From: a virus
Taxonomy: Duplodnaviria > Heunggongvirae > Uroviricota > Caudoviricetes
IMG/VR virus record: IMGVR_UViG_2548876964_000015
Coordinates: 1 to 35,062 of that record
Strand: one strand, 5' to 3'
DNA: 35,062 nt
Under the pieces are notes generated by a model. It searched no databases. It worked only from the letters and a program-made list of their open reading frames with translations, and had not been told where the DNA came from. This document shows, one piece after another, positions 5,291 to 25,288 of this stretch. The first letter of the stretch is position 1, and every line of letters starts with the position of its first letter. The position numbers were made by a program, and so were the translations under genes.

Positions 5291-5301
5291 AGGCCGTAAC
5301 T

Positions 5302-5523
5302 ATGGTTAATGCCAATCCTTGCGCACGCCCTGAATTTATCTGGCGCTTTTACTCCTGCCAGAAACGTCACTATCACTTCGTTATTGCACCGACAGAAGAT
5401 GAGGCTCGCTCTCAGCTTCCGGATGCACCCTGTATTTTCTCTGCCCGCTTTTCCACTTATTCACGCAATTCTCTCAGTTACTGGTGCCTCCCTGTTAACG
5501 CTTCTGCTCAGGAGGGACTATGA
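5302..5523 (+). CDS. icd: Small protein (73 aa) translationally coupled to the antirepressor; icd-like by position
   Basis: GAGG about 10 nt upstream of ATG; stop overlaps the ant ATG (ATGA). Position between c4-like RNA and ant matches the P1 immI layout as I recall it. Confidence 0.5.
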   Translation: MVNANPCARPEFIWRFYSCQKRHYHFVIAPTEDEARSQLPDAPCIFSARFSTYSRNSLSYWCLPVNASAQEGL

Positions 5524-6632
5524 GAACATCGTTAGTTACCCGTGAAGAGATGATCGAGGCAATTGAACAGCACACTGCCTGTATCAGTACCAGGGATATA
5601 CCTGGCGTTATTGCCAACTACTTCATGATCACCAAACAACTTTACCGGAGAAAGGACAAGAACGCGGTTCACCGTATCCTGTTGTCTGATATCCGCGAAT
5701 ACCTGCTCGAACAGGGTCATCTGAATTACGCAACCGTCGCAGCCGAAGCACGCAAGGAGGCACACAGAATGAAAGCAAATAACGTTAAATTAGAAAAAAT
5801 TCATGCACCTTCAGTTCAGGAATCGGAGCTGGTGGTTGTTCAGAATCAGTCTGATGAAATTCCCGTTCTGGAATGGCAGGGAGTACGTGTCGTGACAACC
5901 GAAACTCTTGCTAGAGGGTATGGGGTCGATGAAGCCAATATTCGCAACAATTTGTCTCGCAACCTTGACCGCTTTGAAGAAGGTAAGCATTACTTTCTTC
6001 TAACTGCTTTAAAATTAAGAGAATTTAAGAACAGAGTAACCGGAAGTTACTCTGTTGGTAAGAACGCCAGAAGCCTTACACTCTGGACAGAGCGCGGCGC
6101 TGCACGCATGTCTAAGATCGTGGACACAAATGAAGCATGGGCATTCTTTGAAAAACTGGAAGACAGCTACTTCCGGCAAAAAGAACAGCAACCGGTTGCA
6201 ATCCCCCAGACGCTTCCAGAAGCTCTGCGCCTGGCTGCCGAACTGGCTGAACAAAAGCAACTTCTGGAACAGAAAGCCCACCAGCTAAATCAGCAGCTGG
6301 TGGCCGCCGCTCCTAAGGTCGATTTTGCCGACCGGGTATCAGTAGCTAAAGGGATCCTGATTGGGAATTTTGCAAAGGTTGTTGGACTTAAGCAAAACGC
6401 GCTGTTTGCCTGGTTACGGGAGAACGGCATCCTGATAGCGTCCGGCGGACGTAAAAATGTGCCGTTTCAGCAGTACATAAACGCCGGATATTTCACGGTG
6501 AAAGAAGTGGTGCTGGATGATGAAGATGGCTACCAGATACGGTTGACGCCTCAATTAACGGGTAAAGGCCAGCAGTGGTTGACGCGTAAACTGCTCGATG
6601 CTGGCTTGTTAAAACCGGTGGCGGCTGAATAA
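5520..6632 (+). CDS. ant: Antirepressor (ORF6N/Bro-N-like middle domain plus KilA-C/Ant C-terminal domain)
   Basis: Strong SD GGAGGG; 370 aa; middle segment VLEWQGVRVVTTETLARGYGVD...FEEGKHYF and C-terminal DFADRVSVAKGILIGNFAKVVGLKQNALFAWLRENGIL are typical of phage antirepressors. Confidence 0.75.
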   Translation: MRTSLVTREEMIEAIEQHTACISTRDIPGVIANYFMITKQLYRRKDKNAVHRILLSDIREYLLEQGHLNYATVAAEARKEAHRMKANNVKLEKIHAPSVQESELVVVQNQSDEIPVLEWQGVRVVTTETLARGYGVDEANIRNNLSRNLDRFEEGKHYFLLTALKLREFKNRVTGSYSVGKNARSLTLWTERGAARMSKIVDTNEAWAFFEKLEDSYFRQKEQQPVAIPQTLPEALRLAAELAEQKQLLEQKAHQLNQQLVAAAPKVDFADRVSVAKGILIGNFAKVVGLKQNALFAWLRENGILIASGGRKNVPFQQYINAGYFTVKEVVLDDEDGYQIRLTPQLTGKGQQWLTRKLLDAGLLKPVAAE

Positions 6633-8091: not shown

Positions 8092-8156
8092 TGTCAAACA
8101 ACTATGAAAAACAATCCAGTTTTTGGCTGGTGGAGTGGGATTTTCTCTCAAAATTT

Positions 8157-8173
8157 ATTGCTCTAATAATTCT
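8157..8173 (+). promoter_or_regulatory. C1-operator-like site (15/17)
   Basis: ATTGCTCTAATAATTCT. Confidence 0.5.
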
Positions 8174-8216
8174 TGATTTTTATGCGTAGCTGGACGTAAA
8201 CTCCTCTTCGGACCTA

Positions 8217-8250
8217 ATAACTTCGTATAGCATACATTATACGAAGTTAT
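8217..8250 (+). other. loxP site (Cre recombination target)
   Basis: Exact ATAACTTCGTATA-GCATACAT-TATACGAAGTTAT. Confidence 0.97.
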
Positions 8251-8322
8251 CTTAAGGGTTATTGAACATGATTAATTTACCTGTAAATCCATACAGTTCA
8301 ATACCTTATCAGGTCAAATAGT

Positions 8323-8407
8323 GATCACTTGATCATTTGATCAAGGTTGCGCTACGTAAAATCTGCGAAATGTTGGCAGTGTTAGTGCTCCAGATTTCGC
8401 GTAGCGC
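8323..8407. promoter_or_regulatory. Three GATC sites within 20 bp plus an imperfect inverted repeat
   Basis: TGATCACTTGATCATTTGATCA (GATC at 8323, 8331, 8339); GCGCTACG (8349-8356) pairs with CGTAGCGC (8400-8407), and AAATCTG with CAGATTT. Confidence 0.45.
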
Positions 8408-8439
8408 ACTTAGCACCACCAATCAATCAGAGGTGAAAA

Positions 8440-8661
8440 ATGGGATATTCAGCTGCTAAAGTGTCCACTCATCTTGAGCTTGAGAAAAACCGTGGTTACT
8501 GGCGGGCAAAATGGTTTGAGCGTGATAGTTACCAACTGTCATTATCTCGCGGTGAAGAGAAAATAGAACGCACGCGCGGTCGCTGGCGTTTCTATGACGA
8601 GAACCATAACCAGGTAAAGGCAGAGCCAATCCTGTACACTCTGCTGAAAACAATAATTTAA
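8440..8661 (+). CDS. Hypothetical protein (73 aa)
   Basis: ATG preceded by GAGGTG at about -10; no recognisable domain. Confidence 0.45.
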   Translation: MGYSAAKVSTHLELEKNRGYWRAKWFERDSYQLSLSRGEEKIERTRGRWRFYDENHNQVKAEPILYTLLKTII

Positions 8662-8680
8662 CTTGATCATGAGGTGATGA

Positions 8681-9076
8681 ATGTTTAATGGCCTGACAGA
8701 TGCCAAGGTAAACGCCTTACTGAACGACGCAAAACAAAAAGCTGCTAACCCTGGAACGAATGAAAATGAACGTGCTATGGCTGTTGCAATTTGGGAGTTA
8801 GCAGAAGAAGTAAAGCGAAACCGCTTACTATACACTCGGGTTTACCAGCAATTTGATGGTGCGAGCTGGATAGATATCGAAGAGGCTGAATATGCAACAT
8901 GCAAAAAAGAAAAAAAGATTGTTCGGATTTTGCATAAAGCAGCAACCCCAATCACTGTAGAAATCCCCGATCACAGATATTTCGAGAACGATGATCTACC
9001 AGGGGATGTGATTCGAATTATTGATGAGATACTTCATGAACAAGGCTTAACTGTTAAAATCACGCATAATAAATGA
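8681..9076 (+). CDS. Hypothetical protein (131 aa), translationally coupled to cre
   Basis: ATG preceded by GAGGTG; stop TGA overlaps the cre ATG (ATGA). Confidence 0.55.
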   Translation: MFNGLTDAKVNALLNDAKQKAANPGTNENERAMAVAIWELAEEVKRNRLLYTRVYQQFDGASWIDIEEAEYATCKKEKKIVRILHKAATPITVEIPDHRYFENDDLPGDVIRIIDEILHEQGLTVKITHNK

Positions 9077-10104
9077 CTAATTCGTTAACCGTTCACCAAA
9101 ATTTGCCTGCATTGCCGGTCGATGCAACGAGTGATGAGGTTCGCAAGAACCTGATGGACATGTTCAGGGATCGCCAGGCGTTTTCTGATCATACCTGGAA
9201 AATGCTTCTGTCCGTTTGCCGGTCGTGGGCGGCATGGTGCAAGTTGAATAACCGGAAATGGTTTCCCGCAGAACCTGAAGATGTTCGCGATTACCTTCTA
9301 TATCTTCAGGCGCGTGGTCTGGCAGTAAAAACTATCCAGCAACATTTGGGCCAGCTAAACATGCTTCATCGTCGGTCCGGGCTGCCACGACCAAGTGACA
9401 GCAATGCTGTTTCACTGGTCATGCGACGGATCCGAAAAGAAAACGTTGATGCCGGTGAGCGTGCAAAACAGGCGCTGGCGTTCGAACGCACTGATTTCGA
9501 CCAGGTTCGTTCACTCATGGAAAATAGCGATCGCTGCCAGGATATACGTAATCTGGCATTTCTGGGGATTGCTTATAACACCCTGTTACGTATAGCCGAA
9601 ATTTCTAGGATCAGGGTTAAAGATATCTCACGTACTGACGGTGGGAGAATGTTAATCCATATTGGCAGAACGAAAACGCTGGTTAGCACCGCTGGTGTAG
9701 AGAAGGCACTTAGCCTGGGGGTAACTAAACTGGTTGAGCGATGGATTTCTGTCTCTGGTGTAGCTGATGATCCGAATAACTACCTGTTTTGCCGCGTCAG
9801 AAAAAATGGTGTTGCCGCGCCATCATCCACCAGCCAGCTATCAACTCGCGCCCTGGAAGGGATTTTTGAAGCAACTCACCGATTGATTTACGGGGCAAAA
9901 GATGACTCTGGTCAGCGATACCTGGCCTGGTCTGGACATAGTGCCCGTGTCGGTGCCGCGCGAGATATGGCCCGCGCCGGAGTTTCAATACCGGAGATCA
10001 TGCAAGCTGGTGGCTGGACCAACGTAAATATTGTCATGAACTACATTCGTAACCTGGATAGTGAAACGGGGGCAATGGTGCGCCTGCTGGAAGATGGCGA
10101 TTAG
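9073..10104 (+). CDS. cre: Cre tyrosine recombinase
   Basis: 343 aa, MTNSLTVHQNLPALPVDATSDEVRKNLMDMFRDRQAF...; matches Cre essentially throughout from memory. Confidence 0.97.
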   Translation: MTNSLTVHQNLPALPVDATSDEVRKNLMDMFRDRQAFSDHTWKMLLSVCRSWAAWCKLNNRKWFPAEPEDVRDYLLYLQARGLAVKTIQQHLGQLNMLHRRSGLPRPSDSNAVSLVMRRIRKENVDAGERAKQALAFERTDFDQVRSLMENSDRCQDIRNLAFLGIAYNTLLRIAEISRIRVKDISRTDGGRMLIHIGRTKTLVSTAGVEKALSLGVTKLVERWISVSGVADDPNNYLFCRVRKNGVAAPSSTSQLSTRALEGIFEATHRLIYGAKDDSGQRYLAWSGHSARVGAARDMARAGVSIPEIMQAGGWTNVNIVMNYIRNLDSETGAMVRLLEDGD

Positions 10105-10121
10105 CCGTTCATTTTTACTTG

Positions 10122-10138
10122 ATTGCTCTAATTATTTG
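10122..10138 (+). promoter_or_regulatory. C1-operator-like site (14/17)
   Basis: ATTGCTCTAATTATTTG, 18 nt after the cre stop. Confidence 0.5.
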
Positions 10139-10154
10139 ATATTTATGGTGACAC

Positions 10155-10466
10155 ATGCGGAAGGATTTCAAAATAGACGGAAAATATGTGGTGCTGTCTG
10201 TAAGCTCTCAAATTCAGTCACCATCTGTCATTGTCACCGTAAAATTGAGCGATAGGATGCCTGATATCGACTCGATATCTGTTGCGTTCCCCGTTAAAAG
10301 CATGCGGAGTGCTGAACATTTTGTGATGAATGCAACGGAGGAGGAAGCGCGGCGAGGGCTTACTAGAGTGATGGCGGAATTTGGCGAACTCCTGGGTAAG
10401 GTAAACAATGCCCTTTCAATCAGTTCAGCAAGATCCAAAGCGTTAACAGCTTCCATGATGAAATAA
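10155..10466 (+). CDS. Hypothetical protein (103 aa)
   Basis: ATG with GGTGA upstream; followed by hairpin GCCTGGC-AAGGA-GCCAGGC at 10471-10489. Confidence 0.45.
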   Translation: MRKDFKIDGKYVVLSVSSQIQSPSVIVTVKLSDRMPDIDSISVAFPVKSMRSAEHFVMNATEEEARRGLTRVMAEFGELLGKVNNALSISSARSKALTASMMK

Positions 10467-12103: not shown

Positions 12104-12196
12104 CAATTACATACAGTAATTTTGTGGTTACATTCTCCATTGATTTTCTAACCGCTTTATCATTAGATGTAACAGCATGTAAATCATTTAAAATGG

Positions 12197-13333
12197 ATGA
12201 AAGCAATGGGGAATGAAGTTTATCAAAGTCAAAAATGCAAGTTGAAATATTCAAAATCTCAAATTGATAGGGCTGCTCAATTGATAAGGCACGGGTGTAG
12301 TGACGAAGAAAGGCAGCAATCTATTGAAATGATACAAAATTTCCGTGAGCTGCATCTTTATCCATTAATGCTCATGAAAAATCATTTAGCAAGAGCAGCT
12401 GCTAAGGTTGACAAGGACAAAAAGATTCTCGTTGCAAGAAGACTTAAGCGACTTTCTACCATAATAGATAAACTAGAGCGTCCTAGTCTTGATGGAGGCA
12501 GAACTAGCAATGCAATTAAATTAACACGGATGCAGGACGTTGGCGGATGTAGGGCCATTGTCAGAAACTTAGACCAGTTGATACAGCTAAAGGAACGTCT
12601 TTTAAAAAGCAAATCTGTTCATAGGATTGTTAAAGAGTATGATTATCTTACTCCCAAAGACAGCGGCTATAGTGGAATCCACCTTGCATACAGTTGCTTC
12701 GATCAGAAAGAGGATCAATATCCGTGGCGAAAAACAAAGATTGAGATACAGTTAAGAACTCAATTGCAGCATGCTTGGGCTACTAGCCTTGAAATAATTG
12801 ATACCCTTGAAGGTATCAAGCTGAAAACTTCAAGTGAAGGGCATCCAGAATGGAGACGATTTTTCTATCTAGCCGGATGTCTTGTAGCGCACGACGAAAA
12901 AGCCTGCACTCTTGATGAGCTAGTTGTATCTCAGTATGAAGGCGAGCTTAAAGAGCTGGAACGGACTTTATCTGTACGGAGGAAACTAAGCACATACACC
13001 ATCGCCTTAAATTTAACTTCTGACGCGAATTTGATTAAGAAGTTGCCAAAAAATCATAAGGGGCATTACTTAGTAACAATGAGAAATGCAGAAAACAAGC
13101 CCAATACAAAAAACAAAAAAATGTTCCTAGTGTCTGTTCGCGCATTTAAAACAAAAGAAGCAGATGAAGCCCTTGAGGCCTTAAATAAAGACGATTCTAA
13201 TCCTAATGTATTGATATCTGTTCTCGTTGCTACAGATAACATTAAGTCACTAAAAAAAGCCTACCCCAACTATTTTGGCTCAACAAACCAGTTTACAAAA
13301 TTCTTAGATAAGCATCTTCGTAACGAAGGATAG
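12197..13333 (+). CDS. RelA/SpoT-like nucleotide pyrophosphokinase, toxSAS-type with extra C-terminal domain (fused toxin-antitoxin candidate, CapRel-like)
   Basis: Synthetase-domain motifs visible: RMQDVGGCRAIV, KEYDYLTPKDSGYSGIHL, KIEIQLRTQLQHAWA. About 170 aa of unrecognised C-terminal sequence follow. Confidence 0.8.
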   Translation: MKAMGNEVYQSQKCKLKYSKSQIDRAAQLIRHGCSDEERQQSIEMIQNFRELHLYPLMLMKNHLARAAAKVDKDKKILVARRLKRLSTIIDKLERPSLDGGRTSNAIKLTRMQDVGGCRAIVRNLDQLIQLKERLLKSKSVHRIVKEYDYLTPKDSGYSGIHLAYSCFDQKEDQYPWRKTKIEIQLRTQLQHAWATSLEIIDTLEGIKLKTSSEGHPEWRRFFYLAGCLVAHDEKACTLDELVVSQYEGELKELERTLSVRRKLSTYTIALNLTSDANLIKKLPKNHKGHYLVTMRNAENKPNTKNKKMFLVSVRAFKTKEADEALEALNKDDSNPNVLISVLVATDNIKSLKKAYPNYFGSTNQFTKFLDKHLRNEG

Positions 13334-13341
13334 TTGCTTAA

Positions 13342-13366
13342 TTTTGCCCGGTAATTCCGGGCAAAA
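13342..13366. terminator. Bidirectional hairpin terminator
   Basis: TTTTGCCCGG-TAATT-CCGGGCAAAA, flanked by A/T on both sides, between convergent stops at 13333 and 13370. Confidence 0.6.
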
Positions 13367-13369
13367 TTG

Positions 13370-13618
13370 TCAATCTGCATTCAGGAGCAATGCGTTATCT
13401 ATGATGATCTGCTCCCATTCTTCGAATGCCCGATCGCGGACGCCCTGGGGAACACTGTTAGTTTTGAAATCGACCACCGTCCGCCATTTCCCGTCCGGGC
13501 GGTACATGCGCAGAGCTTTACTTCCCCCTTCCCTGCGCACCTCAACGTTATGCTTATCAGCAAACTCTTGTAATGCTCGTAGCGTCCCATGCTTTACTGT
13601 GTAGTATCGCTTTTTCAA
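13370..13618 (-). CDS. Small basic protein (82 aa); possibly the C1 co-repressor Lxc/Bof (tentative, by size and position)
   Basis: Start overlaps the stop of the upstream ORF (ATGA); 82 aa matches my recollection of P1 Bof length. Confidence 0.45.
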   Translation of the reverse strand: MKKRYYTVKHGTLRALQEFADKHNVEVRREGGSKALRMYRPDGKWRTVVDFKTNSVPQGVRDRAFEEWEQIIIDNALLLNAD

Positions 13619-23653: not shown

Positions 23654-24985
23654 CACCCTCCACGCCCTGACGGGCGTGGATTCCTGCTACGTTCAGGCTG
23701 TCGCCTGAATCATTTCGGTGGGTTCCTGCTTCAACGGGCGGCCTGACTGCACCATCCCTCCACAGGCAAGTACGGCGTGCCCCGCCGCTAAAATGTTACG
23801 AGCGCCGTTTACATCGGCGTTCGCTGTATATCCACATACCTGGCATCTGAATTTACTTTGTGACAGGCGATTTTCTTTCGCGGTATGACCACAGCACGCG
23901 CAACGCTGGCTTGTGTACGCTGGCGGCACTGCCAGTACCTGACCGCCATGCCAGAGCTGCTTATACTCAAGCTGGCGGCGCATTTCATACCAGCCCTGAT
24001 CCAGTATCGAACGGTTTAAACCTGATTTTGCCCGGACATTGCGACCCGGCTGACTTATCGTACCCGCCGCTGACTTTGACATGTGTTTAACCTTCAAATC
24101 CTCAATGACAATCATTGCGTGGTTTTTGCTGATGATCGTTGTGACTTTATGAAGGTAGTCTCTGCGGATATTTGCGATACGGGAGTGCAGTTGCTGTATT
24201 TTGCGTTTCTGCTTCTGCCAGTTGTTGCTGAATCTGACCTTGCGGCTTAACTGGCGCTGAAGTCTCGCCAGCTTTTTCTGGTTTTTCTGGAAACTGTTTA
24301 CAGGCTCAAAGACTGTGCCATCTGACAGCGTGGCGAGCCTGGCCACGCCAGCATCCAGTCCGACCATTGATGCTGAAGGGTGAACAGGAGTGGATACTTC
24401 ACTTTCTGTCTGAATACTGATGTACCATTTACCGCAGGACTGGCTGACAGTGACATTTTTCACAATCCCCGTGACCTGCCGGCTGTTACGGTAGCGCATC
24501 CAGCCAAGTTTCGGCAGAAAAATACGGCTGTTTTCCTGGTCGAGCTTAACACCCTGCGGGTAGCGGAATGCATCATTCTGTCCCCGCTTTTTGAATCGGG
24601 GAAAAGCCGCCCGCTTCTGGAAGAAATTTTTGTAGGCCCGCTCAAGGTCTTTCAGTGACTGCTGCAATGGCTGTGAGGGAGAATCTTTAAGCCATTCGGT
24701 TTCAGTGTCTTTTTTCCACTCAACCAACCAGGAAGCCATTTTCGTGTAAGGGATGTATTTATTCCCGGCCTCATAATTCTCATTCTGAAGTGCCAGTGCA
24801 CGATTGAAAACGAAACGACAAGCTCCGGCAAAGAGCCTCATTTGACGCTCCTGTTGACCACCGGGTCTTAACTGGAATTTAAATGCTTGTAGTCGCTTCA
24901 TCCCACTATTTTAAACAAAAACAGTTAGGTGGAAAACCACGCCTTATATCCCCTCCCTGAAGGACGGGATTTTACGGCGCACCGG
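23654..24985 (-). mobile_element. IS200/IS605-family element carrying tnpB only (IS609-like), inserted right after the pro stop
   Basis: Subterminal hairpin CCACGCCC-TGAC-GGGCGTGG at 23660-23679 on the tnpB 3-prime side; no Y1 transposase (tnpA) ORF. The far boundary is approximate. Confidence 0.7.
23693..24901 (-). CDS. tnpB: TnpB (RNA-guided endonuclease, IS200/IS605 accessory protein)
   Basis: 402 aa, [22 protein letters not shown]...; C-terminal zinc-finger CxxC...CxxC and RuvC-like motifs; near-identical in my memory to E. coli K-12 IS609 TnpB (insQ/ydcM). Confidence 0.9.
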
Positions 24986-24990
24986 ATAAC

Positions 24991-25022
24991 CACCAAAAAT
25001 AACCCCGGCGGCTGCCGGGGTT
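24991..25022 (-). terminator. Rho-independent terminator of the lyz operon
   Basis: AACCCCGGC-GGCT-GCCGGGGTT, followed on the minus strand by ATTTTTGG. Confidence 0.55.
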
Positions 25023-25033
25023 ATCGTTAACTA

Positions 25034-25288
25034 TTATCGCCTTCGCCTGCGTGCCATATATTTGCGCACCGCGCGGCGTGGACAATCTGAAGCGGTTTCT
25101 TTCTGCTGCATCAATCTCGCAGCCATGCTCAAAAATGTCAGGCACAGCCGAAGCCCGGCATATAATAGCGGTTCCAGTGGCCACGTCTCATTGAGCACAT
25201 ATACCGCCATGAAAATCGAGTCGAAAACTATCGCCGCCAGCGATAACTTCATTGTCGAAAGTCGGCGGAGCTGCCGGAGTTTATTCAT
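25034..25288 (-). CDS. Small hydrophobic protein downstream of lyz (lysis accessory candidate)
   Basis: 84 aa; start overlaps the lyz stop; terminator directly after it. Confidence 0.4.
   Translation of the reverse strand: MNKLRQLRRLSTMKLSLAAIVFDSIFMAVYVLNETWPLEPLLYAGLRLCLTFLSMAARLMQQKETASDCPRRAVRKYMARRRRR

What the first reader, a model, noticed from the sequence alone, without database searches (positions are those of the whole stretch)
8255..9076. Two small genes between loxP and cre, the second translationally coupled to cre
The loxP-to-cre distance here is about 820 bp and contains two ORFs (73 and 131 aa) that both carry the same GAGGTG ribosome-binding site. The 131-aa gene ends in ATGA overlapping the cre start. 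My recollection is that P1 has only about 400 bp of promoter DNA here, so the 131-aa gene looks like an insertion co-expressed with cre. Neither protein has a domain I recognise; a small cassette riding on the cre promoter could be an anti-defence or addiction function.
Basis: partly seen in the sequence, partly recalled or inferred. Interest (0 to 1): 0.55.

Follow-up and report, generated by a model that had tools for sequence, protein, structure and literature searches.

The report
Orphan gene inserted before P1 cre
In this P1-like phage-plasmid the first small gene after loxP is simply P1's known cra, while the second is a real but function-unknown 131-aa orphan gene on a 404-bp cassette placed exactly at the cre start codon in about 2-5% of P1-like elements, so that Cre translation now depends on it.

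Summary
In detail: loxP (8217-8250), a 73-aa ORF (8440-8661), a 131-aa ORF (8681-9076) and cre (9073-10104). Both small ORFs have GAGGTG plus a 4-nt spacer, and ORF131/cre overlap at ATGA.

The 73-aa ORF is P1's annotated cra, so P1's ~420 bp here is not only promoter DNA. ORF131 is absent from P1, P7 and all 50,697 phage records. It occurs in 14 of 704 P1-like plasmids and in 32 of 695 cre-positive complete E. coli genomes, plus a Salmonella lineage, always between cra and cre.

The indel is exactly 404 bp with ATGA at both edges. It brings a patch of foreign sequence covering the cra tail and cre head. Between E. coli and Salmonella backbones the flanks are saturated (cre 71%, cra 63% nt identity) while ORF131 is 88.5% identical (omega 0.11-0.18). 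It is therefore a selected protein-coding cassette exchanged by homologous recombination.

cre has no Shine-Dalgarno in any lineage, so ORF131 takes over cra's role as the coupling ORF.

Function is unresolved: no homologue among 15 billion proteins, no domain, low-confidence fold. The anti-defence or addiction idea is untested. This is a modestly interesting variant of a known operon.

The parts
8157..8202 (+). C1 operator Oc1e and promoter P4cre, upstream of loxP and reading through lox into cra
   Evidence: Identical to the P1 features at 94724-94769, annotated as 'may control expression of cra and cre'. Identified by identity to P1; activity not tested here.
8217..8250 (.). loxP site (13-nt inverted arms, 8-nt spacer GCATACAT)
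   Evidence: Perfect inverted repeat I4; identical to both P1 lox halves.
8279..8298 (.). LexA box (overlaps the antisense P2coi promoter in P1)
   Evidence: 20 of 20 identical to the P1 LexA site at 46-65.
8323..8362 (+). Dam GATC cluster (8323, 8331, 8339) and promoter P3cre (-35 TTGATC, -10 TAAAAT)
   Evidence: Hexamers identical to P1 104-129. P1's Dam site 1 is lost here (GATT).
8430..8435 (+). Shine-Dalgarno GAGGTG of cra
   Evidence: Anti-SD duplex -7.1 kcal/mol, 4-nt spacer.
8440..8661 (+). cra (73 aa, basic, pI 9.6), the known P1 'Cre-associated' ORF of unknown function
   Evidence: 14 nt and 5 aa differences from P1 cra. Annotated in AF234172 and X03453. phrog_804, E 1e-32. The family is confined to P1-like elements.
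8516..8545 (+). Promoter P2cre inside cra
   Evidence: -35 TTGAGC (1 mismatch to P1), -10 CATTAT identical.
8633..8657 (+). Promoter P1cre in the 3' end of cra; here it lies upstream of ORF131 rather than of cre
   Evidence: -35 TGTACA identical; -10 ATAAT versus ATTAT in P1.
8622..9093 (+). Approximate extent of the exchanged module: cra tail, spacer, ORF131 and the first ~7 cre codons
   Evidence: Mismatch density against P1 is 20% in 8622-8661 and 33% in 9073-9093, versus 4.4% and 2.9% in the adjoining DNA. The same footprint appears in the Salmonella near-isogenic pair. High similarity to the Salmonella alleles runs from roughly 8614-8632 to ~9107.
8669..8672 (+). ATGA 7 nt after the cra stop, at the position the cre start occupies in ORF131-less elements; possible relic and left copy of a 4-bp repeat
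   Evidence: ORF131-less junctions read TGA + 7 nt + ATG(cre). Here the junction reads TAA + 7 nt + ATGA|GGTG..., and the right edge reads ...AATAAATGA|C. Four bases could be chance.
8673..9076 (+). The 404-bp indel (equivalently 8669-9072)
   Evidence: 843 minus 439 = 404 in IMG/VR loci; 404 gap columns for L005 against L183/L184; alignment to P1.
8671..8676 (+). Shine-Dalgarno GAGGTG of ORF131
   Evidence: -6.9 kcal/mol, 4-nt spacer; conserved in all alleles.
8681..9076 (+). ORF131: 15-kDa, pI 5.6, soluble orphan protein (phrog_20152)
   Evidence: Full-length PHROG hit, E 4e-92. Only 6 clusters in 5.8 billion proteins, and no true remote homologue in 1.84 billion representatives. Omega 0.11-0.18 against the Salmonella alleles. 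GC 40% versus 49% for the window.
8867..8950 (+). Fast-evolving patch of ORF131 (codons 63-90)
   Evidence: Omega 0.18-1.03 here, versus 0-0.07 for codons 91-131 and 0.11-0.42 for codons 1-62. Substitutions cluster here in the protein alignment.
9073..10104 (+). cre (343 aa), with no Shine-Dalgarno of its own and a start codon overlapping the ORF131 stop
   Evidence: 338 of 343 aa identical to P1 Cre, omega 0.05. Anti-SD energy +1.5 kcal/mol here and -2.5 to +0.7 in four other lineages.
10093..10119 (+). Weak terminator-like hairpin plus T-run at the end of cre
   Evidence: It is the only + strand terminator-like site in 8100-10250.

Best explanation
ORF131 is a genuine accessory protein-coding gene carried on a 404-bp cassette. 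The cassette sits exactly between the cra stop and the cre start of the P1 lox-cra-cre operon.

Shown: it is absent from P1 and most relatives. It has its own evolutionary history, being far less diverged than its flanks between E. coli-type and Salmonella-type backbones. It is under purifying selection. It is always flanked by a short patch of co-transferred cra-tail and cre-head sequence. So it spreads among P1-like elements by homologous recombination in those conserved arms, most likely from the orf356-type (Salmonella/Cronobacter) backbone into the E. coli P1 backbone.

Inferred from sequence: it is transcribed with cra and cre from the conserved P4cre, P3cre, P2cre and P1cre promoters. 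That means low constitutive expression in the lysogen, and more when C1 and LexA are absent just after DNA entry or on induction. It is translated from its own strong SD. Because cre lacks an SD in every lineage, ribosomes terminating at the ORF131 UGA re-initiate at the overlapping cre AUG. ORF131 thereby replaces cra, which sits 7 nt upstream of cre in P1, as the ORF that feeds Cre translation.

Inferred, weakest step: the protein is dispensable for Cre-lox recombination. It most likely acts on a host or competitor target, as a moron-like lysogenic-conversion, anti-defence or exclusion factor made at the moment the linear genome enters and in the plasmid prophage, rather than on Cre itself.
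For: Absence from and presence in relatives.

Four operon architectures exist (cra-cre; cra-ORF131-cre; orf356-cra-cre; orf356-cra-ORF131-cre), so both extra genes are independent cargo.

Discordant divergence, window versus L005: cra 63% nt (pS 0.65), cre 71% nt (pS 0.80), c8 53% nt, ORF131 88.5% nt (dS 0.39-0.49, omega 0.11-0.18).

Near-isogenic ORF131+/- pair with a 404-nt gap and a substitution patch in the cra tail and cre head. The same footprint appears against P1.

E. coli alleles are tightly clustered (dS 0.08), while Salmonella alleles are as far from each other as from the E. coli ones (dS 0.28-0.49). The E. coli ORF131+ cre head (MTNS...) is of the non-P1 type.

Operon and coupling: no internal terminator; regulatory elements conserved; cre has no SD in 5 lineages.

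Against a Cre-specific role: ORF131 varies (91-92% aa) where Cre is 99-99.7% identical, and is 88.5% identical where Cre is 81%. About 95% of cre-bearing E. coli elements lack it.

Low GC and a variable patch.
Against: No functional evidence of any kind exists: no domain, no defence or anti-defence family hit, and AlphaFold pLDDT of only 59.

The gene is never seen outside the cra-cre junction. That is unusual for a general-purpose moron or anti-defence gene, and it fits a Cre- or Cra-linked role equally well.

It has no promoter or terminator of its own, unlike classic morons.

Translational coupling and promoter use are inferred from sequence and from the P1 annotation, not measured. Omega in the variable patch never clearly exceeds 1, so an arms-race signature is not demonstrated.
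Confidence: 0.55

Rival explanations
1. ORF131 is a dedicated partner of the Cre-lox system. It would be a small protein made in fixed ratio with Cre that binds Cre, Cra or lox and tunes recombination. Examples would be biasing toward resolution, limiting Cre activity or toxicity, or aiding cyclisation of the incoming genome.
For: The position immediately 5' of cre is invariant, with an ATGA overlap, on two very different backbones and in every one of the ~60 occurrences examined. Translational coupling is typical of proteins that work together. The gene is never found elsewhere among 15 billion proteins.
Against: Cre needs no accessory factor (established knowledge of Cre-lox in vitro and in eukaryotes). 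About 95% of P1-type cre operons lack ORF131. There is no co-variation with Cre or lox: the ORF131 patch changes while Cre stays 99-99.7% identical, and loxP is identical throughout. ORF131 is acidic and shows no Xis/excisionase-like or DNA-binding domain hit. The fixed location is sufficiently explained by spread through homologous recombination in the cra and cre arms.
Confidence: 0.2
2. ORF131 is ancestral to all P1-like elements and was deleted repeatedly (in P1, P7, JK004 and others). On this view it was not acquired as a cassette.
For: The gene is present on both major backbones. The ATGA at both edges could equally mediate precise deletion.
Against: If it were vertically inherited, its synonymous divergence should match the flanks. 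Instead dS is 0.39-0.49, against saturated flanks with pS 0.65-0.80. Within the Salmonella backbone it is more diverged than its flanks, dS 0.32 versus 0.10-0.18. The co-transferred patch of foreign cra-tail and cre-head sequence marks recombinational import. Later losses are not excluded.
Confidence: 0.1
3. Cra and ORF131 form a toxin-antitoxin or addiction pair riding on the cre promoters.
For: They are two small adjacent genes, one basic (pI 9.6) and one acidic (pI 5.6), in a plasmid-maintenance region.
Against: Cra occurs without ORF131 in the great majority of elements, and ORF131 moves independently of the body of cra. There is no toxin or antitoxin domain in Pfam, NCBIfam or PADLOC. The element already carries phd/doc.
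Confidence: 0.04
4. ORF131 has no protein function. On this view it is a spurious or decaying ORF whose only role is as a cis-acting translated spacer that sets Cre level.
For: It is an orphan with no homologues and a low-confidence fold. Occasional truncated variants occur (P0006, P0007, L178). Omega is 0.54 between the two close E. coli alleles.
Against: Omega is 0.11-0.18 over 45 differences, and 0-0.07 in the C-terminal 41 codons with dS 0.4-0.6. The frame is intact in 5 alleles and about 60 records. A spacer role would not conserve amino-acid sequence. L178 also has a broken cre, so it is a poor assembly.
Confidence: 0.05

Closest known systems
Bacteriophage P1 lox-cra-cre operon (AF234172; Sternberg's ORF1/ORF2 of X03453)
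   Same: The window has the same loxP, the same Oc1e/P4cre, LexA box and P3, P2 and P1cre promoters, and the same cra (93% aa) and cre (98.5% aa). In both, cre lacks an SD and depends on the upstream ORF.
   Different: A 404-bp cassette encoding ORF131 replaces the 7-nt cra-cre spacer. The cra stop is TAA instead of TGA. The Cre N-terminus is MTNSL instead of MSNLL. P1cre now precedes ORF131.
orf356-cra-cre operons of Salmonella, Cronobacter and other P1-like elements (phage JK004; IMG/VR L092 and L093; L182-L185)
   Same: The lox-to-cre interval is used as a cargo slot, with genes packed by 4-nt overlaps or 7-nt gaps in front of an SD-less cre.
   Different: The extra gene there is a 356-aa protein (phrog_7674, unknown function; homologues in Vibrio, Bordetella, Microcystis and Sinorhizobium phages). 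It lies upstream of cra, not between cra and cre. Some of these elements also carry ORF131.
Phage 'morons' / lysogenic-conversion cassettes
   Same: Patchy presence among close relatives, lower GC than the surroundings, independent horizontal history, and expression from the prophage.
   Different: ORF131 has no promoter or terminator of its own. It is embedded as a translationally coupled cistron of a housekeeping operon, and it is confined to one locus in one phage-plasmid family.
Recombination directionality factors (Xis-like) next to tyrosine recombinases
   Same: A small gene immediately adjacent to and co-expressed with a tyrosine recombinase.
   Different: RDFs are small basic DNA-binding proteins. 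ORF131 is acidic, has no excisionase or HTH hit, and Cre-lox is not known to need a directionality factor.

Membership tests
P1 Cra (phrog_804), for ORF1 | Sequence identity to P1 Cra, and position between lox and cre on the cre strand | tested here: met
   68 of 73 aa identical to AF234172 Cra and collinear. phrog_804, E 1e-32.
phrog_20152 (unknown function), for ORF131 | Full-length match to the family HMM | tested here: met
   E 3.8e-92, residues 1-131 on profile positions 1-131.
Translationally coupled cistrons | Stop/start overlap on the same strand, conserved among relatives | tested here: met
   ATGA at 9073-9076; the same overlap is present in pAVS0578-B, L004-L007 and L181.
Translationally coupled cistrons | The downstream gene lacks its own ribosome-binding site | tested here: met
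   cre anti-SD energy is +1.5 kcal/mol here and -2.5 to +0.7 in P1, JK004, L092 and L005, versus about -7 for cra and ORF131.
Translationally coupled cistrons | Downstream translation depends on upstream translation | not testable with these tools
   Needs cre reporter fusions with ORF131 start or SD mutations.
Type II toxin-antitoxin / addiction module | Recognisable toxin or antitoxin domain | tested here: not met
   No Pfam, NCBIfam or PADLOC hit above noise for either protein.
Type II toxin-antitoxin / addiction module | The two genes are inherited as a pair | tested here: not met
   cra occurs without ORF131 in 690 of 704 plasmids and 663 of 695 E. coli genomes.
Known anti-phage defence systems (PADLOC-DB) | Match to a defence-protein model | tested here: not met
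   The only hit is a JetC coiled-coil noise match, E 0.01 and 11.7 bits.
DNA-mimic anti-restriction proteins (Ocr/ArdA-like) | Strongly acidic surface (very low pI) and a matching fold | tested here: not met
   pI 5.58, net charge -4. No structural match, but the model is of low confidence. No anti-defence profile library was available.
Xis-like recombination directionality factors | Small basic DNA-binding (winged-helix/excisionase) protein | tested here: not met
   ORF131 is acidic and has no excisionase or HTH family hit.
Transposable element or integron cassette | Terminal inverted repeats, a target-site duplication of defined length, a transposase, or attC | tested here: not met
   Only a 4-bp ATGA repeat at the edges. 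No flanking inverted repeats and no recombinase other than cre. The flanking substitution patch instead indicates homologous exchange.
Phage moron | Gene present in some but not other closely related genomes, with atypical composition | tested here: met
   Present in 2-5% of P1-like elements; GC 40% versus 49% for the window.
Phage moron | Autonomous promoter and terminator | tested here: not met
   No promoter-like or terminator-like site specific to the insert. It uses the cre promoters.

The most novel reading that the evidence does not exclude
ORF131 is the first natural accessory protein of the Cre-lox system. On this reading it is a small factor, made in fixed ratio with Cre through stop-start coupling, that binds Cre (or Cra or lox) and changes the outcome or timing of recombination. 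It might, for instance, favour cyclisation or resolution over integration, or restrain Cre. Its strict confinement to the codon-precise slot in front of cre would then be functional rather than a by-product of how it spreads.
Probability: 0.12. Interest if true: 0.75.

Novelty: new variant of a known kind. Interest (0 to 1): 0.33.

Why it matters
Cre-lox is one of the most widely used recombination tools, yet its native operon is little studied.

The analysis shows that cre has no ribosome-binding site of its own in any P1-like lineage examined. It also shows that the slot in front of cre is a codon-precise cargo site holding up to two extra genes (orf356 and ORF131).

If ORF131 acts on Cre, it would be a new handle on Cre activity. 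If it acts on the host or on rival phages, it would be a new orphan family of early- and lysogen-expressed phage-plasmid effectors, enriched in STEC O111/O103 plasmids.

Either way the case is cheaply testable. As it stands, this is a well-defined but functionally blank accessory gene, already present in databases as 'hypothetical protein'.

Tried and rejected
1. Domain searches of both proteins (Pfam, PHROGs, PADLOC, NCBIfam) gave only unknown-function PHROGs and noise.
2. The word-indexed search of 5.8 billion proteins and exhaustive HMMER over 1.84 billion representatives returned only the gene's own family. The apparent hits P0008-P0011 are repeat-motif artefacts from giant repeat proteins.
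3. AlphaFold2 gave pLDDT 59 for ORF131 and 54 for Cra. Foldseek against PDB and BFVD had no match with E<=0.001, and PDB sequence search found nothing.
4. I considered that the ORF131 start (MFNGLT) is a duplicated cre start (MSNLLT). Only 16-18 of 33 nt match, and the MTNS cre head also occurs without ORF131 in L092. Rejected as unproven.
5. I considered that cre's MTNSL head is diagnostic of ORF131. Rejected for the same reason.
6. I tested whether the 73-aa ORF after the orf356 homologue in Bordetella phage PHB04 is a Cra homologue. There was no BLASTP alignment.
7. The 10-nt repeat ACTTGATCAT (8327 and 8661) as a regulatory duplication: about 0.7 such repeats are expected by chance (my own estimate), and it is not conserved in the Salmonella alleles.
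8. Rfam and paralogue searches within the window and P1 found nothing.
9. Salmonella phage SJ1 (OQ595196) looked like a variant junction, but the record is a gap-free concatenation of CDSs, so I ignored it.
10. Literature searches by accession, by PHROG id, and on P1-like variable regions found no mention of this gene. Lobocka 2004 was not held.
Full report
**1. What is in the sequence**

The window is part of a P1-like phage-plasmid. Its gene order is phd/doc, pdcB, lpa, pacAB, c1, coi, loxP, cre, c8, ref and onward. It is 100% identical over the finding region (window 8150-9200) to plasmids of Shiga-toxigenic E. coli such as NZ_CP027575.

- Canonical loxP lies at 8217-8250.
- A 343-aa Cre is encoded at 9073-10104.
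- Between them, on the cre strand, are a 73-aa ORF (8440-8661) and a 131-aa ORF (8681-9076).
- Each is preceded by GAGGTG plus a 4-nt spacer, and the two 13-nt initiation regions match at 11 of 13 positions. Anti-SD pairing is about -7 kcal/mol for both.
- The second ORF ends in ATGA, overlapping the cre ATG.

**2. ORF1 is P1 cra**

Alignment to P1 (AF234172) shows ORF1 is collinear with the annotated gene cra, 'putative cre associated function', at P1 207-428. It has 14 nucleotide and 5 amino-acid differences. The same ORF is 'ORF1 (aa 1-73)' of the original cre sequence X03453.

P1's 418 nt between lox and cre is thus not just promoter DNA. It holds cra, with promoter P3cre upstream of cra and P2cre and P1cre inside it. 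A fourth promoter, P4cre, lies upstream of lox under the C1 operator Oc1e. All of these elements, and the LexA box, are conserved in the window with 0-1 mismatches.

Cra is basic (pI 9.6) and belongs to phrog_804, of unknown function. Its family is restricted to P1-like elements of Enterobacterales. Its AlphaFold model is uninformative, with pLDDT 54.

**3. ORF131 is an extra 404-bp segment with a narrow distribution**

- Megablast: none of 24 matching phage records, including P1, P7, phiW39, SJ46 and RCS47, covers the ORF131 segment. 14 of 704 matching plasmids do.
- tblastn finds ORF131 in 0 of 50,697 phage records. It finds it only in those 14 plasmids, always next to cre.
- Among 5,426 complete E. 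coli genomes, 695 carry a P1-type cre and 32 carry ORF131.
- Thirty records match ORF131 at >=99% identity and thirty match the window's cre at >=99%, most simply one plasmid lineage, largely O111:H8, O111:H2 and O103:H2. The other two genomes (pAVS0578-B and strain 06-00048) form a second lineage with a 91%-identical protein.
- In 80 IMG/VR loci with Cre at >=98% identity, the lox-to-cre distance takes only two values, about 439 or 843. This gives an indel of exactly 404 bp.
- The species-representative genome set has no copy. The metagenome set has one 1.3-kb contig, again cra-ORF131-cre.

**4. A cargo slot with four architectures**

Protein look-ups led to Salmonella P1-like contigs whose operon is loxP-orf356-cra-ORF131-cre, with ATGA overlaps at orf356/cra and at ORF131/cre.

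Cronobacter phage JK004, two IMG/VR contigs and several Salmonella contigs have orf356-cra-cre without ORF131.

All four combinations of the two extra genes therefore exist. orf356 is phrog_7674, of unknown function. It has 31-45% homologues in Vibrio, Bordetella, Microcystis and Sinorhizobium phages.

**5. ORF131 is a selected gene with its own history**

Window versus Salmonella contig L005:

| Gene | nt identity | Synonymous divergence |
|---|---|---|
| cra | 63% | pS 0.65 |
| cre | 71% | pS 0.80, saturated |
| c8 | 53% | pS 0.73 |
| ORF131 | 88.5% | dS 0.39-0.49, omega 0.11-0.18 |

Within the Salmonella backbone the pattern reverses: ORF131 has dS 0.32 against 0.10-0.18 for its flanks.

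Selection is uneven along the protein:

- Codons 91-131: omega 0-0.07.
- Codons 1-62: omega 0.11-0.42.
- Codons 63-90: omega 0.18-1.03, a fast-evolving patch.

All other reading frames of the segment contain 3-14 stops. ORF131 is therefore a real coding gene that has moved between diverged backbones.

The E. coli alleles are close to each other (dS 0.08). The Salmonella alleles are as far from each other as from the E. coli ones, which points to longer residence on the orf356-type backbone.

**6. How it moves and where exactly it sits**

A near-isogenic pair was found on the Salmonella backbone: L005 with ORF131, and L183/L184 without. They differ by only 0-4 mismatches per 100 nt across orf356, cra and cre. 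The exceptions are 404 gap columns and a dense substitution patch in the last ~35 nt of cra and the first ~15 nt of cre.

The window shows the same footprint against P1: 20% mismatches in 8622-8661 and 33% in 9073-9093, versus 4.4% and 2.9% alongside. Its Cre begins MTNSL, as in the non-P1 backbones, rather than MSNLL.

So the unit that is exchanged is the cra tail, ORF131 and the cre head, swapped by homologous recombination in conserved arms.

At the junction itself:

- All ORF131-less elements read cra-TGA + 7 nt + ATG(cre).
- ORF131-bearing elements read cra-TAA/TAG + 7 nt + ATGA|GGTGATG.ATG(ORF131)...AATAAATGA|C(cre).

ATGA thus sits at both edges of the 404 bp. This fits an original microhomology insertion at the cre start codon, but four bases are too few to prove it. 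No inverted repeats or transposon features flank the insert.

**7. Expression logic (inferred)**

There is no + strand terminator-like site between loxP and the end of cre.

cre has no usable Shine-Dalgarno in any of five lineages, with energies from +1.5 to -2.5 kcal/mol. cra, orf356 and ORF131 all have strong ones.

The simplest reading is that Cre synthesis always depends on ribosomes finishing the upstream ORF. In P1 that ORF is cra; here it is ORF131. P1cre, inside the cra tail, now sits just upstream of the ORF131 SD.

The protein would be made at a low level in the lysogen. It would be made more strongly when C1 and LexA are absent. That second condition rests on the P1 annotation of Oc1e/P4cre and the LexA box, not on measurement.

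**8. Function**

All routes to a function failed:

- No Pfam, NCBIfam or PADLOC family.
- Only six clusters, all >=81% identical, in 5.8 billion proteins.
- No true remote homologue in an exhaustive HMMER scan; the listed hits are repeat-motif artefacts.
- No PDB sequence hit.
- An AlphaFold model of pLDDT 59, with N-terminal helices and a C-terminal beta-alpha-beta unit, that matches nothing in PDB or BFVD.
- No paralogue in the window or in P1.

The protein is soluble, 15 kDa, pI 5.6.

I favour an accessory, host- or competitor-directed role, for these reasons:

- The gene is dispensable to most P1-like elements.
- It has low GC (40% versus 49%).
- It moves independently of its neighbours.
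- It carries a variable patch.
- It does not co-vary with Cre or loxP.
- It lies in the pac-proximal region. From established P1 biology (my own knowledge, not tested here), this region is terminally redundant in first headfuls and expressed immediately for cyclisation.

The strict confinement to the slot before cre keeps a Cre-linked function alive as the main rival. A toxin-antitoxin pair with Cra and a non-functional ORF are both unlikely, for the reasons given under the rival explanations.

**9. Verdict**

ORF1 is known cra. ORF131 is indeed an insertion co-expressed with cre. Its role is unknown.
- ORF131 is already in RefSeq as 'hypothetical protein' and in PHROGs as phrog_20152, so the sequence is not new.
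- What this analysis adds: the codon-precise cassette anatomy, the recombinational spread between backbones, the selection profile, and the inference that cre translation is always slaved to the preceding ORF.
- I rate it a new variant of a known operon, of modest interest.

Noticed in passing
window 5295-6631 (+): An extra icd-like gene plus antirepressor Ant module sits between pacB and c1. In P1, pacB is followed directly by c1. The window also has the usual second icd/KilAC-antirepressor module near 23877-25207.
   Followed up: no
window ~12159-13466 (+): A SIR2-family protein gene occupies the place, after the mat-like gene, where P1 carries its res/mod (EcoP1I) type III restriction system. 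It is possibly an alternative defence cargo (the P1 gene order here is from my own knowledge).
   Followed up: no
L004-L007 1699-2769; L008 3001-4071; L092, L093, L182-L185: A 356-aa gene (phrog_7674, unknown function) is inserted between loxP and cra in Salmonella, Cronobacter and other P1-like elements, overlapping cra by ATGA. It has 31-45% homologues in Vibrio, Bordetella, Microcystis (next to a XerD-like recombinase) and Sinorhizobium phages.
   Followed up: partly
window 9073; P1 436; L008 4291; L092 3501; L005 3393: cre lacks a Shine-Dalgarno sequence in every lineage examined. In ORF131-less elements it starts 7 nt after the cra stop, which suggests that native Cre translation is generally coupled to the upstream ORF.
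   Followed up: partly
window 8440-8661 and hundreds of RefSeq records: PGAP names the 73-aa Cra protein 'creatininase' in many plasmid records. This is an evident misannotation of a tiny phage protein.
   Followed up: no
window 8903-8917 (A6-G-A7 run inside ORF131): Two 92-aa truncated ORF131 variants, from different alleles (P0006 and L178), break at this homopolymer run. L178 also has a fragmented cre, so sequencing error is likely, but slippage-prone inactivation cannot be excluded.
   Followed up: partly
window 8348-8408: An 18-nt inverted repeat (89% complementary, 25-nt loop) lies between P3cre and the cra start, overlapping the P3cre -10 hexamer. It could be an operator or an RNA hairpin.
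   Followed up: no
window 8270-8273: P1's Dam methylation site 1 in the cre regulatory region (GATC) is GATT here. An extra GATC lies in the cra-ORF131 spacer at 8665-8668, within a 10-nt exact copy of ACTTGATCAT from the P3cre region.
   Followed up: partly
NZ_CP015229.1 1878341-1878769 versus NZ_CP012497.1: Two assemblies of E. coli 06-00048 place the ORF131-bearing P1-like element once on a 136-kb plasmid and once in the chromosome. This is either integration or an assembly difference.
   Followed up: no
L003 (OQ595196, Salmonella phage SJ1): This 24.5-kb 'complete genome' record has CDSs abutting with no intergenic bases and mixed orientation lost. It looks like a concatenation of gene sequences rather than a genome.
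   Followed up: no
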